Positions 30,959 to 41,958 of a DNA stretch of 64,000 bases are shown one piece after another. The number at the start of each line of letters is the position of its first letter. The first letter of the stretch is position 1. The notes below the pieces were generated by a model, which was given only the letters and a program-made list of their open reading frames with translations, was not told where the DNA came from and searched no databases. Made by a program: the position numbers and the translations under genes. Source of the stretch: Sedimentisphaerales bacterium (GTDB taxonomy: Bacteria; Planctomycetota; Phycisphaerae; Sedimentisphaerales; SM23-30); the NCBI GenBank assembly GCA_963662515.1, contig OY759675.1, positions 1,733,473 to 1,797,472 on the forward strand. The letters run 5' to 3'.

Positions 30959-31501
30959 GTGCAGGGTAAAAAAGAAGATATGGATTACCGCGAATATATG
31001 TCGCTATTATCTTTGAATTATCAGAGTATATATAGTTATATATTAATGTTGGTGGCTAATCATAATAATGCTGACGATATTATGCAGGAAACTACAATAC
31101 TGATGTATGAGAAGTTTAATGTATTTGAGAAGGGTACAGATTTTTTATCCTGGGCCCGCAAAATAGCCAAATACAAGACTATGGAGTATTATCGCAAGCA
31201 GAAGCGGGAGAAGTTGGTATTTGATCAGGATCTGGTAGAGTTGATCGATCAGGAGTGCAAGACCTTTAAAGAAAATGAAGATGACTGGCTTGATACTCTG
31301 GGTAAATGTGTTTCAGACCTGGAAAGGTCAGACCGGGAATTATTGCATATAAGATACCATGAAAATGCCAGCGTGCTGGAGATATCCCGCCGGTTTGGCT
31401 GTTCATTTCAGAAAGTATATCGTGCGATGGCGAGAATTAATGGTTTATTGCATCGTTGTATGCGTCGCAAGTTAGGTATGGAGCAGATATATGATGCATA
31501 A
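30959..31501 (+). CDS. ECF-type RNA polymerase sigma factor (locus 1)
   Basis: Sigma-70 region 2 (DADDIMQETTILMYEKF...FLSWARKIAKYKTMEYYRKQKRE) and region 4 HTH (ASVLEISRRFGCSFQKVYRAMARI) are both present. The GTG start is preceded by AGGAAA. Confidence 0.88.
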   Translation: MQGKKEDMDYREYMSLLSLNYQSIYSYILMLVANHNNADDIMQETTILMYEKFNVFEKGTDFLSWARKIAKYKTMEYYRKQKREKLVFDQDLVELIDQECKTFKENEDDWLDTLGKCVSDLERSDRELLHIRYHENASVLEISRRFGCSFQKVYRAMARINGLLHRCMRRKLGMEQIYDA

Positions 31502-33176
31502 CGAAAATAGCAAAAAATGGCATCGTATGGGCCTGATCCTCCAGAGATCGCTTGAAGGTGATCTGACTCAGCCTGAGAGGTTATGGCTTATATCTGTTTT
31601 GCATTCTGATGCTCAAGCCAGGGAATTTTATATAGGTTTTATGAAAGTGCATTCCGGTTTGCGAATGATATCTGCTGAGATATTACCAGAGACGGCAAGT
31701 AAGAATAATGTAAGTCTCAATGATCTGTTGCAGGGATTGTCAGAATATGAGCAGGAGGCTCCAGAGGCAGTAATTCCCGCGGATACCGAGCCGGTATCGA
31801 CAATAGAGGTATCAGATTTTGGGAGCCGGATTCGCAAAAAGAGTAAGTTGGAAAATCTGCTGCTGTTGGGTTCAATAGCAGCGGTTTTATTGATTGCGGT
31901 GGCCGGAATAATGTTTCCACCTGCTATGGGGCGTGAGGTGGCAACAATTACAGATATGCTCTCAGCTCGTTGGCAGAATAATGGGGTTAAGTATGAACCG
32001 GGTACTAGAATATTCAAACGAGAACGGATGCAATTAGAGGATGGATTAGCCGAGCTGGCATTTGATAATGGAGTTCGTGTAACAATAGAGTCGCCTGCAT
32101 CATTTAAGGTGCGGTCCGATATGCAGATAGATCTGGAATATGGCAAACTGTTTGCTACCGTTCCAGGCGGTGCGTCTGGCTTTACTGTTAAGACTCGGGT
32201 GGCGAAGGTAGTTGATATCGGCACACGCTTTGGTGTAGAAGTTGATAAGGCTGGGGCCGTTTCATTGCATGTAATTAAAGGGCAAACCAAACTGGGTTTG
32301 AACCGCTTCTGGAATAGTGAAAGTGTAGATGTTAATGGTGGTGCTGCCCGCAAGGTATCAGTCAGTGAAGAAATAACAGAAATAAACTGTAACAACAGGC
32401 TTTTTGCTCAGGAGATAAGCTCCCGGAGTAATACGGTCTGGCGAGGAGAAGAGCAGTTAGATCTTGCCGATGTGGTATGTGGTGGGAATGGTTTTAATAC
32501 CGGCAATGCCGAGATGGTTATTGACCCATTAACTGGTGAACTTCAACCATACATGGAGAGAGGGTCGATAACAAGGCGTGCGCAGGCAATATTTTTGCCC
32601 ACAGAGTCTTTAGCTTATGTTGATGGTGTTTTTGTTCCAGATGGTGGCGATGGAGCAATAGAGATAACATCTACAGGCATCAGGTATAGCGATTGCCCAG
32701 ACACATCAGGAGCGACGCGTAAAGATATTACAGTGTTGAATAAGGTATATGATAATGAGGGTGGAGATCTCATTCTGGGAGATTATAAATATGGTTATCC
32801 GTATCGCCCTGCGATATGCATGCAGGCCAATAAAGGAATTACTTTTGATCTTAACGCGATCAGGGCTGATCTGGAAAATGTGGAAATAGAGTATTTTGAA
32901 GCTTTATGTGCTATGGCTTCGCTAGGTACTGCAATGAATACAGGTATGGGGCCTGCTGGTAAGGCAGATTTCAGAATACTGCTAGATGGTGTGGAGCAAA
33001 AGGTTATCAGCGATGTACGCACTGATTTCAGTGAGAAGGTTCGTGTTGATATTGAGCCGGAACACCGGTTTCTTACTATAATGACTACCGATCATCAACT
33101 TAAGGGCGAATCAGATCCGATCGGCTGGGACAGATGTTTTCTGGGTGAGCCGGTATTGGGTTTAAAAAGTAGATAA
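31491..33176 (+). CDS. FecR-family anti-sigma factor with a long C-terminal extension (locus 1)
   Basis: It overlaps the sigma gene by 11 nt. It has an N-terminal anti-sigma helix region, one TM helix (LLLLGSIAAVLLIAVAGIMF), a FecR domain (DIGTRFGVEVDKAGAVSLHVIKGQTKL) and an extra C-terminal domain of about 245 aa. Confidence 0.85.
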   Translation: MMHNENSKKWHRMGLILQRSLEGDLTQPERLWLISVLHSDAQAREFYIGFMKVHSGLRMISAEILPETASKNNVSLNDLLQGLSEYEQEAPEAVIPADTEPVSTIEVSDFGSRIRKKSKLENLLLLGSIAAVLLIAVAGIMFPPAMGREVATITDMLSARWQNNGVKYEPGTRIFKRERMQLEDGLAELAFDNGVRVTIESPASFKVRSDMQIDLEYGKLFATVPGGASGFTVKTRVAKVVDIGTRFGVEVDKAGAVSLHVIKGQTKLGLNRFWNSESVDVNGGAARKVSVSEEITEINCNNRLFAQEISSRSNTVWRGEEQLDLADVVCGGNGFNTGNAEMVIDPLTGELQPYMERGSITRRAQAIFLPTESLAYVDGVFVPDGGDGAIEITSTGIRYSDCPDTSGATRKDITVLNKVYDNEGGDLILGDYKYGYPYRPAICMQANKGITFDLNAIRADLENVEIEYFEALCAMASLGTAMNTGMGPAGKADFRILLDGVEQKVISDVRTDFSEKVRVDIEPEHRFLTIMTTDHQLKGESDPIGWDRCFLGEPVLGLKSR

Positions 33177-41400: not shown

Positions 41401-41958
41401 TGGCTCAGTGGTGGTACTCAAACCAGTATAATTGCCGATAAGGGCCTTGGTTGGTCATCAGAGCTTATGCGTTGGACATTGGCTATCAATCCATCAACCA
41501 ACAAGATCAACTTTGTTTCGGCTGCTGATAGCAGTTTTCAGACATCTATCAGTCAGACTGAATTTGAGGCAGGGCAATGGCATCATATTCTGGTGACTCA
41601 TGATGGTAGTGGCAACCAGGCCAGATTATATATAGATGCAGAACTGGCTAATAGCGGTTCTTTGGTATTGGGCAATAAAACAGACAGTCCATTATATCTT
41701 GGAAGTGATAGTAGCGGCCGATATTTTAACGGGTCACTTGATGATATCAGGATTTATAACCGGGTTCTCACACAAAAAGAGATATTAAATGTATATAATG
41801 TTCTGGCTCTTGAGAAAAAGCAGGTATGTGCGTTCGATTCAGGGGCAGGACAATTTGATATATCAGGTCCTGATGGACAAAGTGATTGTGTGGTTGATGT
41901 GTATGATTTGATGCTACTGTCAGCGCATTGGCTTGAAAGCGGCAAGGTCCAGCCCTGA
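38464..41958 (+). CDS. Secreted FAD-dependent oxidoreductase-like domain fused to an unknown beta-rich domain - Ig-like - LamG - dockerin-like tail (P4)
   Basis: I prefer the GTG at 38464 (RBS AGAGG upstream), which gives the signal peptide [26 protein letters not shown]. The FAD dinucleotide motif is [29 protein letters not shown]...GGLTISG. Other markers are VQWYKY...GDYYCKV, a LamG block ([11 protein letters not shown]...[11 protein letters not shown]) and the tail [20 protein letters not shown]. Confidence 0.75.
   Translation: [1164 protein letters not shown]

What the first reader, a model, noticed from the sequence alone, without database searches (positions are those of the whole stretch)
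30959..41958. ECF sigma / FecR locus 1: a PUL-like unit without a TonB-dependent transducer or SusC/D
A translationally overlapped ECF sigma and FecR anti-sigma pair is followed in the same orientation by four secreted carbohydrate-binding or redox proteins: P1, P2, the PEP-CTERM protein P3 and the FAD-oxidoreductase fusion P4. The unit ends at a strong terminator (42001). In the Fec paradigm and in Bacteroidota PULs, FecR-type anti-sigmas receive their signal from the N-terminal extension of a TonB-dependent outer-membrane transducer. No such gene is in this locus or anywhere in the 64 kb. The cargo consists of binding modules (CBM4/9-like, LamG, Ig) rather than classical hydrolases. This looks like a self-contained glycan sensing and capture module with a different signal-entry mechanism.
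Basis: partly seen in the sequence, partly recalled or inferred. Interest (0 to 1): 0.65.

Follow-up and report, generated by a model that had tools for sequence, protein, structure and literature searches.

The report
Sugar-sensing anti-sigma switch without TonB transducer
A planctomycete (Sedimentisphaerales) gene cluster is probably switched on by a membrane anti-sigma factor that carries its own carbohydrate-binding module where the iron-type relatives carry the domain that docks to an outer-membrane transporter; it belongs to a very large, apparently undescribed family that may be how these bacteria sense polysaccharides.

Summary
An ECF sigma gene (30959-31501) overlaps a FecR-domain anti-sigma gene (31491-33176) by 11 nt. 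Four secreted proteins follow on the same strand. No TonB-dependent transducer was found among the 64-kb ORFs scanned.

It keeps the FecR stem: a cytoplasmic anti-sigma domain, one TM helix, and a beta domain with the invariant Gly-Thr that aligns to the E. coli FecR self-cleavage site. The STN subdomain that docks to a transducer is absent. In its place are a beta-rich region and a CBM51/NPCBM-like beta-sandwich.

The family is large: about 6,100 clusters at 50% identity, with many paralogs per Sedimentisphaerales genome. The anti-sigma gene follows an ECF sigma gene in 87 of 88 cases. Downstream come LamG/Ig, PEP-CTERM or pilin-like surface proteins, and CAZymes are frequent among the neighbouring genes.

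Synteny with sigma, anti-sigma and P1-P4 is conserved in two orthologous loci. A motif, CGGAATAA-N12-GYCAT, occurs once in each of these loci, upstream of sigma.

The best model is direct periplasmic glycan sensing followed by FecR-like proteolysis, sigma release and operon induction. This is functionally analogous to Clostridium RsgI/SigI. Ligand, regulon and proteolysis are inferred, not shown.

The parts
30839..30863 (+). Candidate sigma-dependent promoter, CGGAATAA-N12-GTCAT. It lies about 96-120 nt upstream of the sigma start, inside the 135-nt conserved leader (30824-30958).
   Evidence: The exact motif occurs once in the 64-kb window and once each in orthologous loci L083 and L082, always upstream of sigma. 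It is absent from the other 81 loci. Both elements are conserved between the window and L083 while the spacer varies. Function is inferred.
30959..31501 (+). ECF sigma factor of the Rhodopirellula/Verrucomicrobium family
   Evidence: Pfam Sigma70_r2 and Sigma70_ECF. TIGR02989 at 146.7 bits against a cutoff of 124.55.
31491..33176 (+). Single-pass anti-sigma factor. Layout: cytoplasmic anti-sigma domain (aa 1-64), TM helix (aa 120-141), FecR/CJM-type beta domain (aa 149-300), beta-rich middle region (aa 301-430), CBM51/NPCBM-like head (aa 431-561).
   Evidence: AlphaFold model, pLDDT 85.9. Pfam FecR. Foldseek hits 4m0n and 6ovk_R for the stem, and 2vmi, 2vmg, 2vng and 2ygl (CBM51) for the head. 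NPCBM is found in 26 of 45 homologs.
32220..32225 (+). Codons for Gly244-Thr245, the putative self-cleavage site
   Evidence: Both residues are invariant in 45 homologs. They align to E. coli FecR G181-T182, the mapped self-cleavage site (PMC12036975). Cleavage in this protein is inferred.
32781..33173 (+). CBM51/NPCBM-like C-terminal head, the proposed glycan sensor
   Evidence: Foldseek against CBM51 structures: E 4e-6 to 2e-5, TM (target-normalised) about 0.6. Family profile against the CBM51 region of 7js4: E 2.3e-7. Weak direct Pfam NPCBM hit for the window protein: E 0.017.
33345..35399 (+). P1: secreted protein with CBM4_9-like N-domain, Ig, LamG_3 and a C-terminal dockerin-like tail
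   Evidence: The ortholog in L083 is 80% identical.
35508..37469 (+). P2: paralog of P1 with the same architecture
   Evidence: The ortholog in L083 is 87% identical.
37482..37509 (+). Stable hairpin after P2, without a U-run
   Evidence: -20.8 kcal/mol, z -5.3. Conserved in L083.
37606..38286 (+). P3: the same CBM4_9-like domain anchored by PEP-CTERM
   Evidence: It is 54% identical to the P2 N-domain. Orthologs are present in L083 (84%) and L082 (42%).
38406..38446 (+). Terminator or attenuator-like hairpin with a U-run, in the P3-P4 intergenic region
   Evidence: 13-bp stem, -22.2 kcal/mol, z -5.9. This intergenic region is the most conserved stretch relative to L083, at 90-95% identity.
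38464..41958 (+). P4: secreted PF12831 flavoprotein ('xanthan lyase'-annotated family) with Ig, LamG_3 and the dockerin-like tail
   Evidence: FAD-domain orthologs sit in the same position in L083 and L082.
42001..42021 (+). Terminator-like hairpin with T5 that ends the unit
   Evidence: -12.9 kcal/mol, z -2.7.
42381..51648 (+). Adjacent second unit of the same kind: sigma (42381-42932), FecR/NPCBM-like anti-sigma (42893-44614), a LamG-GH115 alpha-glucuronidase-family protein (44595-49205) and a LamG/Ig/tail protein (49426-51648)
   Evidence: A GH115 that is 54% identical lies next to the orthologous sigma/anti-sigma unit in L082.

Best explanation
This is a TonB-independent, ECF-sigma-controlled glycan-response operon of an anaerobic planctomycete (order Sedimentisphaerales).

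The anti-sigma factor holds the sigma factor at the inner membrane through its N-terminal domain. Its periplasmic part has a FecR-type stem and a CBM51/NPCBM-like carbohydrate-binding head.

Proposed mechanism, step by step:
1. As in FecR and FoxR, the stem self-cleaves at the invariant Gly244-Thr245, and the two fragments stay associated.
2. A glycan or oligosaccharide that has reached the periplasm binds the head and destabilises or releases the C-terminal fragment.
3. This exposes the membrane stub to site-1 and site-2 (RseP-type) proteolysis.
4. The sigma factor is freed and transcribes from its own promoter (candidate at 30839-30863).
5. That raises expression of sigma and anti-sigma and of the co-oriented cargo. 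The cargo is three surface-anchored proteins that share one CBM4_9-like binding domain (P1-P3) and a secreted flavoprotein (P4).
6. The substrate is probably a glucuronic-acid-bearing glycan, and the unit probably works together with the neighbouring GH115 unit.

Shown by computation: the domain architecture, the absence of an STN subdomain, the absence of a transducer in the sequence examined, and the family-wide gene context and synteny.

Inferred: ligand binding, self-cleavage, the protease cascade, promoter identity, operon structure and substrate.
For: - The architecture comes from a confident model (pLDDT 85.9).
- Foldseek matches the stem to anti-sigma structures 4m0n and 6ovk_R over only about 132 columns, which is the CJM part. 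It matches the head to CBM51 structures.
- hhalign to E. coli FecR covers only FecR residues 145-249 and includes G181-T182. FecR residues 250-317 have no counterpart.
- All 45 homologs hit Pfam FecR and 26 of 45 hit NPCBM. No other family was matched by more than one member, so none shows FecR_N or FecR_C.
- The family profile hits the CBM51 region of 7js4 at E 2e-7.
- G244 and T245 are invariant. FecR cleavage at G181/T182 is experimentally mapped (PMC12036975).
- The PupR STN subdomain is required to bind the transducer (PMC7186176).
- The sigma-anti-sigma pairing holds in 87 of 88 cases.
- The first downstream genes are LamG (41), Ig (24), pilin-like (15) and PEP-CTERM (10), plus GH115, GH43, GH95 and GH62. 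Other large neighbours are GH2, PF12831, GH106, GH43, RG lyases and similar.
- Synteny with L083 and L082 is conserved, and each has one unique upstream motif.
- A related subgroup has an ECF-like GTGAA-N17-GTCTT motif once per locus, upstream of sigma.
- Head-swapped relatives exist with LamG_3 in place of CBM51 (P0119, P0120).
- The anti-sigma domain is the least conserved domain (22% against 35-37% pairwise identity). This fits many orthogonal sigma/anti-sigma pairs.
- Planctomycetes import polysaccharide into the periplasm (PMC5394234).
- There is a functional precedent for anti-sigma factors with CBM heads, RsgI (PMC10328401, PMC12203970).
Against: - No binding, cleavage or expression data exist for any family member.
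- The window protein itself hits Pfam NPCBM only weakly (15.6 bits against a cutoff of 23.9).
- CBM-fold beta-sandwiches can also bind proteins.
- No motif shared between the sigma upstream region and the cargo upstream regions was found.
- Strong hairpins separate P2, P3 and P4, so co-transcription is uncertain.
- The promoter motif was defined after the fact from three sequences.
- The rest of the 4.24-Mb genome could not be searched for transducers.
- The head is no more variable than the stem, which gives no positive sign of ligand diversification.
Confidence: 0.55

Rival explanations
1. Protein relay. The CBM51-like head does not bind sugar. It docks to a co-encoded envelope protein: the P1/P3-type CBM4_9 protein, or in other units a pilin-like or PEP-CTERM protein. 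That partner captures the extracellular polysaccharide and passes the signal inward, taking the transducer's role in cell-surface signalling without TonB.
For: An envelope-anchored binding protein almost always follows the anti-sigma gene directly (76 of 88 units; LamG 41, pilin-like 15, PEP-CTERM 10). In Fec and Pup systems the anti-sigma C-terminus binds a protein domain. Planctomycete fibres bind dextran. The head is about as conserved as the stem.
Against: The downstream partner varies widely in architecture while the head is a single family. The head's sequence and fold relatives are bona fide glycan-binding CBM51 modules. No interaction could be modelled with the tools available.
Confidence: 0.2
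2. Classical cell-surface signalling, with a TonB-dependent transducer encoded elsewhere in the genome.
For: FecR-domain anti-sigma factors usually work this way. The rest of the genome was not available.
Against: The STN/FecR_C subdomain needed to bind a transducer's signalling domain is absent (PMC7186176). No Plug, TonB or STN family was seen in the window. None was seen among 76 first-downstream genes (top 25 families) or among families matched by at least two of 113 large neighbours. FecA phmmer against 2,367 ORFs from the related loci found nothing. The sigma factor is TIGR02989, not FecI-like.
Confidence: 0.04
3. Envelope or secretion-stress sensor. The pair responds to load or misfolding of the abundant secreted LamG and CBM proteins, or to cell-wall or EPS status, not to an external glycan. 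The link to CAZyme genes would then be only co-localisation.
For: Many ECF/anti-sigma pairs are stress sensors. No ligand is known. A PEP-CTERM cargo protein hints at a link to exopolysaccharide biology.
Against: Dozens of orthogonal paralogs per genome, each beside a different CAZyme set, fit substrate-specific control better than a general stress response. The carbohydrate-binding-type head and the LamG-head variants point the same way.
Confidence: 0.1
4. The sigma/anti-sigma pair and P1-P4 are merely adjacent, and the sigma regulon lies elsewhere.
For: No sigma-type motif was found upstream of P1-P4. Strong hairpins lie between cargo genes.
Against: The gene order sigma, anti-sigma, LamG protein, PEP-CTERM protein, FAD protein is kept at 51% anti-sigma identity even though the flanking genes differ. 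Family-wide, same-strand cargo follows tightly.
Confidence: 0.08

Closest known systems
FecI-FecR-FecA and PupI-PupR-PupB cell-surface signalling (Proteobacteria)
   Same: An ECF sigma gene is translationally coupled to a single-pass anti-sigma gene. The periplasmic FecR/CJM beta domain is shared, and so is the conserved Gly-Thr that is the FecR/FoxR self-cleavage site. The downstream regulated proteolysis is probably similar.
   Different: There is no STN/FecR_C subdomain and no TonB-dependent transducer. The sigma factor belongs to TIGR02989, not the FecI clade. The C-terminus is a CBM51-like module. The cargo is glycan-binding surface proteins and CAZymes, not an iron transporter.
RsgI/SigI polysaccharide-sensing anti-sigma factors of Clostridium (Acetivibrio) thermocellum
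   Same: The logic is the same. There are many paralogous membrane anti-sigma factors whose extracytoplasmic C-terminal heads are carbohydrate-binding modules. An autoproteolytic juxtamembrane domain is followed by RseP cleavage. Each pair controls genes for a particular glycan.
   Different: The proteins are unrelated: SigI rather than ECF, and the RsgI_N and autoproteolytic RsgI periplasmic domains rather than the FecR stem. RsgI works in a Gram-positive envelope and senses outside the cell. Here the head sits in a diderm periplasm.
Bacteroidota PULs controlled by ECF sigma/anti-sigma pairs (SusC-like transducers with an N-terminal extension)
   Same: An ECF sigma with a FecR-domain anti-sigma lies next to glycan-utilisation genes, in many paralogous copies per genome.
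   Different: Bacteroidota anti-sigma factors keep the FecR_C/STN part and signal through a SusC-like TonB-dependent transducer paired with SusD. Neither is present here.
ECF242 FecR-like pairs of Spirochaetes, noted as lacking TonB-dependent receptors (Casas-Pastor 2021, PMC7826278)
   Same: A precedent for FecR-like anti-sigma factors with no associated transducer.
   Different: They belong to a different sigma clade. No carbohydrate-binding head or CAZyme context is described for them.

Membership tests
Fec/Pup-type cell-surface signalling system | ECF sigma of the FecI-like clade | tested here: not met
   The best NCBIfam hit is TIGR02989, the Rhodopirellula/Verrucomicrobium family (146.7 bits, cutoff 124.55). 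No FecI model appears among the 25 best hits.
Fec/Pup-type cell-surface signalling system | Anti-sigma factor with an N-terminal cytoplasmic anti-sigma domain and a single TM helix | tested here: met
   The model shows helices at aa 5-64 and a TM helix at aa 120-141, preceded by RIRKKSK. Profile similarity to the RsiW anti-sigma domain is weak, E 0.73.
Fec/Pup-type cell-surface signalling system | Periplasmic FecR/CJM beta domain with the Gly-Thr self-cleavage motif | tested here: met
   Pfam FecR E 1.3e-7 and in 45 of 45 homologs. Foldseek hits 4m0n and 6ovk_R. G244-T245 are invariant and align to FecR G181-T182. Cleavage itself cannot be tested with these tools.
Fec/Pup-type cell-surface signalling system | C-terminal STN (FecR_C) subdomain that binds the transducer's signalling domain | tested here: not met
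   FecR residues 250-317 are unaligned. Only about 132 columns of PupR and BDI_1681 are matched. No beta-alpha-beta repeats appear in the model after aa 300. No FecR_C Pfam hit in 45 homologs.
Fec/Pup-type cell-surface signalling system | Cognate TonB-dependent transducer with an N-terminal signalling domain | tested here: not met
   None in the 64-kb window. None was seen in the checks on about 1.4 Mb of related loci. The rest of the genome cannot be tested with these tools.
RsgI/SigI system | SigI-type sigma, and an anti-sigma factor with the RsgI N-terminal and autoproteolytic periplasmic domains | tested here: not met
   The sigma is an ECF of TIGR02989. Pfam finds only FecR and NPCBM in the anti-sigma family.
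RsgI/SigI system | C-terminal extracytoplasmic carbohydrate-binding sensor module | tested here: met
   CBM51-like head. LamG-head variants exist. Binding itself was not tested.
Bacteroidota-type PUL | Adjacent SusC-like TonB-dependent transporter and SusD-like lipoprotein | tested here: not met
   No such Pfam families in the window or in the neighbour censuses.
CBM51 / NPCBM (PF08305) | Sequence match to PF08305 at the gathering threshold | tested here: inconclusive
   The window protein scores 15.6 bits against a cutoff of 23.9 (E 0.017). However, 26 of 45 homologs match at E<=0.01, the best at 6e-11, and the family profile hits a solved CBM51 region at E 2.3e-7.
CBM51 / NPCBM (PF08305) | CBM51 beta-sandwich fold | tested here: met
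   Foldseek to 2vmi, 2vmg, 2vng and 2ygl: E 4e-6 to 2e-5, probability 1.00, TM (target-normalised) about 0.6.
CBM51 / NPCBM (PF08305) | Demonstrated carbohydrate binding | not testable with these tools
   Needs recombinant protein tested on glycan arrays or by ITC.
TIGR02989 ECF sigma family | Score above the curated cutoff | tested here: met
   146.7 bits (sigma 1) and 131.1 bits (sigma 2) against a cutoff of 124.55.

The most novel reading that the evidence does not exclude
FecR-stem anti-sigma factors with swappable glycan-binding heads (CBM51, LamG) may be the general substrate-sensing layer of polysaccharide utilisation in Phycisphaerae, and perhaps in wider PVC bacteria. On this reading there are thousands of orthogonal, TonB-independent sigma/anti-sigma switches. 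Each reads an oligo- or polysaccharide that has been imported whole into the enlarged periplasm, and each turns on a matched set of surface-anchored capture proteins and CAZymes. This would be the planctomycetal counterpart of SusC/D-linked PUL regulation, evolved by replacing the transducer-docking STN domain with a CBM.
Probability: 0.35. Interest if true: 0.75.

Novelty: new variant of a known kind. Interest (0 to 1): 0.55.

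Why it matters
How planctomycetes and their relatives sense and regulate polysaccharide breakdown is poorly understood. They are major degraders of complex glycans in anoxic sediments, and they lack SusC/D-type systems.

This locus gives a concrete, testable candidate: an anti-sigma factor with a built-in CBM51-like sensor, in a family of about 6,000 clusters at 50% identity.

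If the model is right, three things follow:
- It would explain how FecR-type signalling can work without TonB.
- It would allow substrate prediction for many uncharacterised gene clusters from the sensor head.
- It would supply a large set of potentially orthogonal glycan-responsive sigma/anti-sigma switches.

It also highlights a large secreted flavoprotein family (PF12831, annotated 'xanthan lyase'). That family has no solved structure or known function, yet it is a conserved member of the unit.

Tried and rejected
- **Generic promoter search.** I looked for an ECF -35/-10 dyad shared by all 87 sigma upstream regions, or by the regions downstream of the anti-sigma genes. Only AT-rich dyads came up. 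The subgroup motif GTGAA-N17-GTCTT is at chance level in the window.
- **Rfam.** The scan of 30000-52000 gave no credible family.
- **Source contig.** Exact look-up of the window's anti-sigma protein found nothing on record. Cluster look-up gave no name for it. The organism is therefore inferred from relatives only.
- **Transducer search.** FecA phmmer against all ORFs of the loci gave no hit, but its sensitivity is limited.
- **P4 flavoprotein domain.** There is no sequence homolog in the PDB. Foldseek gave only generic FAD-fold matches with TM about 0.3, so no function could be assigned. Searching 'PF12831' in the literature was uninformative.
- **Literature.** Searches for FecR plus NPCBM/CBM51, or FecR plus Planctomycetes/Phycisphaerae, found no description of this architecture. 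Jogler 2012 and Wiegand 2020 were not readable, and Spring 2018 did not appear in the searches and was not read; any of these may mention such pairs.
- **Dockerin tail.** The C-terminal tail of P1, P2 and P4 is only a weak half-dockerin match (E 0.06). I do not call it a dockerin.

Full report
**What is in the sequence**

ORF listing and Pfam/NCBIfam scans confirm the described gene order on the + strand.
- The ECF sigma gene is at 30959-31501. It hits Sigma70_r2 and Sigma70_ECF, and scores 146.7 bits against TIGR02989 ('Rhodopirellula/Verrucomicrobium family'), whose cutoff is 124.55.
- A 561-aa FecR-domain protein at 31491-33176 overlaps it by 11 nt.
- P1 and P2 each have a CBM4_9-like N-domain, an Ig domain and a LamG_3 domain.
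- P3 has the CBM4_9-like domain and a PEP-CTERM anchor.
- P4 has PF12831 FAD_oxidored (E 6e-94), then Ig, then LamG_3.

Reading the DNA and comparing it with an ortholog corrects two starts.
- P1 begins at ATG 33345 with a signal peptide, MEQRKRIL....
- P4 begins at GTG 38464, behind a GAGG ribosome-binding site.

All four cargo proteins then begin with signal-peptide-like sequences (read by eye).

The hairpin at 42001-42021 exists (7 bp, T5) but is modest, at -12.9 kcal/mol and z -2.7. Stronger hairpins lie after P2 (-20.8 kcal/mol) and after P3. The one after P3 spans 38406-38436, has a 13-bp stem, scores -22.2 kcal/mol with z -5.9, and is followed by a U-run.

Pfam scans of the other window ORFs of 150 aa or more found no Plug, TonB_dep_Rec or STN family. 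The largest ORF at each location was scanned. ORFs nested in or overlapping larger ones, and two stand-alone minus-strand ORFs (265 and 316 aa), were not; none exceeds 316 aa.

A second unit of the same design follows at 42381-51648. It has a sigma gene, a FecR anti-sigma gene, a LamG-GH115 protein and a LamG/Ig protein.

**Organism and family**

Homologs of the anti-sigma factor are labelled, where named, Sedimentisphaerales, Anaerohalosphaeraceae or Phycisphaerae (Planctomycetota). The closest named relative is 82% identical.

The family is large.
- A scan of one genome per species found at least 563 relatives.
- All of the best 80 are in Phycisphaerae-type MAGs, some of them labelled 'Pirellulales'.
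- There are several paralogs per genome, for example at least seven in chromosome OY775912.1.
- A profile search of 1.84 billion cluster representatives (50% identity) gave 6,095 hits at E<=1e-30. The best 150 hits almost all align over the full length.

**The key feature: the anti-sigma factor's own architecture**

An AlphaFold model built on 45 homologs (pLDDT 85.9) shows five parts:
- N-terminal helices at aa 5-64;
- a TM helix at aa 120-141;
- a beta domain at aa 149-300;
- a beta-rich region at aa 301-430;
- a terminal beta-sandwich at aa 431-561.

Foldseek against the PDB returns two classes of hit.
- Anti-sigma periplasmic domains: 4m0n, and 6ovk_R (PupR). These are matched over only about 132 columns.
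- CBM51 modules: 2vmi and 2vmg (GH95 CBM51), 2vng (GH98 CBM51), 2ygl and 7jrl. E-values run from 4e-6 to 2e-5, with TM (target-normalised) about 0.6 for the single-module targets.

Sequence evidence agrees.
- Many homologs carry precomputed PF08305 NPCBM/NEW2.
- In a direct scan, 45 of 45 hit FecR and 26 of 45 hit NPCBM (best 6e-11). No other family was matched by more than one member, so none hits FecR_N or FecR_C.
- The family profile hits the CBM51 region of 7js4 at E 2.3e-7.
- The window protein alone hits NPCBM only weakly, at E 0.017.

Profile alignment to E. coli FecR covers only FecR residues 145-249. That stretch contains G181-T182, which aligns to G244-T245 of the window protein, and both are invariant in the family. 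G181/T182 is the experimentally mapped FecR self-cleavage site (PMC12036975).

FecR residues 250-317 have no counterpart. [quoted passage not shown]

So the FecR stem is kept, and the transducer-docking module is replaced by a carbohydrate-binding-type module.

Two relatives, P0119 and P0120, have the same stem, including DLGTEFGV, but a LamG_3 head. The head is therefore modular.

**Gene context across the family**

In 83 loci (about 1.4 Mb) plus the window, 87 of 88 anti-sigma ORFs have an ECF sigma gene directly upstream, usually overlapping. The single exception lies at a contig edge.

Of the 88 units, 76 have same-strand genes directly downstream. Pfam families in the first downstream gene are:
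- LamG_3 in 41;
- Ig in 24;
- N_methyl (pilin-like) in 15;
- PEP-CTERM in 10;
- PKD in 8;
- plus GH115, GH43, GH95 and GH62.

The N-terminal 430 aa of 113 other large neighbouring genes gave GH2 (13), PF12831 (6), GH106, GH43, rhamnogalacturonan lyases, GH3, GH95, GH97, GH31 and GH13. No TonB-related family appeared among families matched by at least two members. E. coli FecA found nothing by phmmer.

A C-terminal tail, D-[CG]-x-[VI]...D-[FL]...A..W-L, ends P1, P2, P4 and 71 of 945 neighbouring genes. It resembles half a dockerin only weakly, at E 0.06. The related species Limihaloglobus sulfuriphilus is reported to have 13 dockerin-fusion proteins, some FAD-binding, and one small scaffoldin (PMC11557425).

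**Synteny and promoter**

Two orthologous loci were examined.
- L083 (Sedimentisphaerales MAG; anti-sigma about 82% identical) has the same order: sigma, anti-sigma, P1 (80%), P2 (87%), P3 (84%), P4 (91%, cut by the contig end). Its upstream neighbour is different.
- L082 (Anaerohalosphaeraceae; anti-sigma 51% identical) keeps sigma, anti-sigma, a LamG protein, a P3-like PEP-CTERM protein (42%) and a PF12831 protein (40%). It also has a GDSL esterase, a pilin-like gene and a GH2. A GH115 that is 54% identical to the window's lies just upstream.

P4 is therefore a conserved member of the unit despite the hairpin before it. The GH115 link ties window loci 1 and 2 together functionally and points to a glucuronic-acid-bearing glycan. 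That substrate is an inference.

Identity to L083 drops from 83% to 43% about 135 nt upstream of sigma. This defines the left edge of the unit.

Within the conserved leader, the motif CGGAATAA-N12-GTCAT (30839-30863) has both elements conserved while the spacer varies. The pattern CGGAATAA-N12-GYCAT occurs exactly once in the window, once in L083 and once in L082. Each time it lies upstream of sigma, and it is absent from the 81 other loci.

A different subgroup (L001, L002, L004, L062, and nearly L003) has GTGAA-N17-GTCTT once per locus, about 70 nt upstream of sigma. Four perfect matches were observed against 0.15 expected from shuffles.

These look like ECF-type autoregulated promoters, each specific to its own orthogroup. 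No copy precedes P1-P4. The cargo would therefore be co-transcribed, with the hairpins acting as attenuators or stabilisers, or it uses promoters I did not find. This remains inference.

The P3-P4 intergenic region is the most conserved stretch between the window and L083, at 90-95% identity against 79-88% for coding DNA. It has no Rfam match.

**Cargo**

- P1, P2 and P3 share one about 200-aa CBM4_9-like domain. P2 and P3 are 54% identical in it, and P1 and P3 are 41% identical.
- P1, P2, P4 and the locus-2 LamG protein share an Ig-LamG-tail cassette.
- In locus 2, the GH115 protein and its neighbour share their N-terminal 350 aa at 35% identity.

Each unit thus seems to put one targeting domain on several anchoring formats. 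No hydrolase domain was found in P1-P3.

The flavoprotein domain of P4 models very well (pLDDT 95.6). It has no PDB sequence homolog and only generic FAD-fold matches. Its family is very large, with at least 8,000 hits at E<=1e-20, and some sources name members 'xanthan lyase'. Its function is unknown.

**Mechanism proposed**

The cytoplasmic anti-sigma domain sequesters the sigma factor. This domain is the least conserved part of the protein, at 22% pairwise identity against 35-37% for the periplasmic domains. That fits many orthogonal sigma/anti-sigma pairs.

By analogy with FecR and FoxR, the stem is proposed to self-cleave at G244-T245. Binding of a periplasmic glycan to the CBM51-like head would then release the C-terminal fragment. 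That would trigger site-1 and RseP-type cleavage and free the sigma factor.

Planctomycetes are known to accumulate imported dextran in the periplasm (PMC5394234), which makes a periplasmic sensor plausible.

The closest functional analogue is RsgI/SigI of Clostridium thermocellum. There, paralogous anti-sigma factors with polysaccharide-sensing heads autoproteolyse and are then cut by RseP (PMC10328401, PMC12203970). The proteins are unrelated to those here.

**Rivals**

- A protein relay through the co-encoded surface protein.
- A transducer encoded elsewhere in the genome. This is unlikely given the missing STN subdomain.
- A stress sensor.
- Mere adjacency of the regulator and the cargo.

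None can be excluded without experiments.

**Novelty**

In the searchable open-access library I found no description of FecR-stem anti-sigma factors with an NPCBM/CBM51 head, nor of this family in planctomycetes. The ECF reclassification mentions only FecR-like groups tied to TonB receptors, with Spirochaetes as an exception.

Three relevant subscription papers were not read: two (Jogler 2012, Wiegand 2020) could not be retrieved, and Spring 2018 on Sedimentisphaera did not appear in the searches. From memory, the latter may note ECF/FecR pairs near CAZyme genes.

I rate this a new variant of a known kind. It is ordinary within its lineage, it appears undescribed in mechanism, and it is directly testable.

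Noticed in passing
window 19640-20375: A repeat-rich intergenic region lies downstream of the GH92 gene. It has tandem units of about 224-236 nt, each containing long imperfect hairpins (48-52-nt arms, 79-85% complementary) built from TAGGTCCCAT / ATGGGACCTA 9-10-mers.
   Followed up: partly
window 38287-38463: The P3-P4 intergenic region is the most conserved stretch between the window and ortholog L083, at 90-95% identity against 79-88% for coding DNA. It contains several hairpins and ends in a 13-bp stem with a U-run. It has no Rfam match. It could be a cis-regulatory leader or attenuator for P4, or a 3'-UTR RNA.
   Followed up: partly
window 38464-41958 (P4); also L082:14825-17038, L083:9012-9421: P4 belongs to a secreted PF12831 flavoprotein family with at least 8,000 hits at E<=1e-20. 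Some sources annotate members as 'xanthan lyase'. There is no solved homolog and only generic FAD-fold matches. It recurs in these glycan loci (6 of 113 large neighbours). A secreted flavoenzyme in an anaerobic lineage is unexplained.
   Followed up: partly
P0119, P0120 (relatives): These anti-sigma factors have the same anti-sigma domain, TM helix and FecR stem (including DLGTEFGV), but a LamG_3 head in place of the CBM51-like head. This suggests that sensor heads are swapped between family members.
   Followed up: partly
L001:1134-2216: A protein that follows a weak ECF sigma hit combines an anti-sigma-like N-terminus and a TM helix with a DUF1559/pseudopilin-like C-terminus.
   Followed up: no
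window C-termini of P1, P2, P4 and 49426-51648; 71 of 945 genes in related loci: A shared tail of about 25 aa, D-[CG]-x-[VI]..D-[FL]..A..W-L-x-C/G, often preceded by DxDGD. It resembles a single dockerin repeat only weakly (E 0.06). It may be a lineage-specific anchoring or assembly tag.
   Followed up: partly
window 42277-42332: Two exact copies of ATGTTAAAAAAAAG lie 42 nt apart, upstream of the second sigma gene. The first copy lies within one arm of an imperfect 21-nt inverted repeat.
   Followed up: no
window 56451-57716: An IS256/Mutator-family transposase gene (Transposase_mut, E 1.6e-117), a mobile element in the window.
   Followed up: no
window 14464-17055: An 863-aa protein that combines Cache and PAS sensor domains with a DUF294 nucleotidyltransferase.
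   Followed up: no
L001, L002, L004, L062 (about 70 nt upstream of sigma); L003 nearly: An ECF-like motif, GTGAA-N17-GTCTT, occurs as a perfect match once per locus, always upstream of the sigma gene, in one subgroup of the family.
   Followed up: yes
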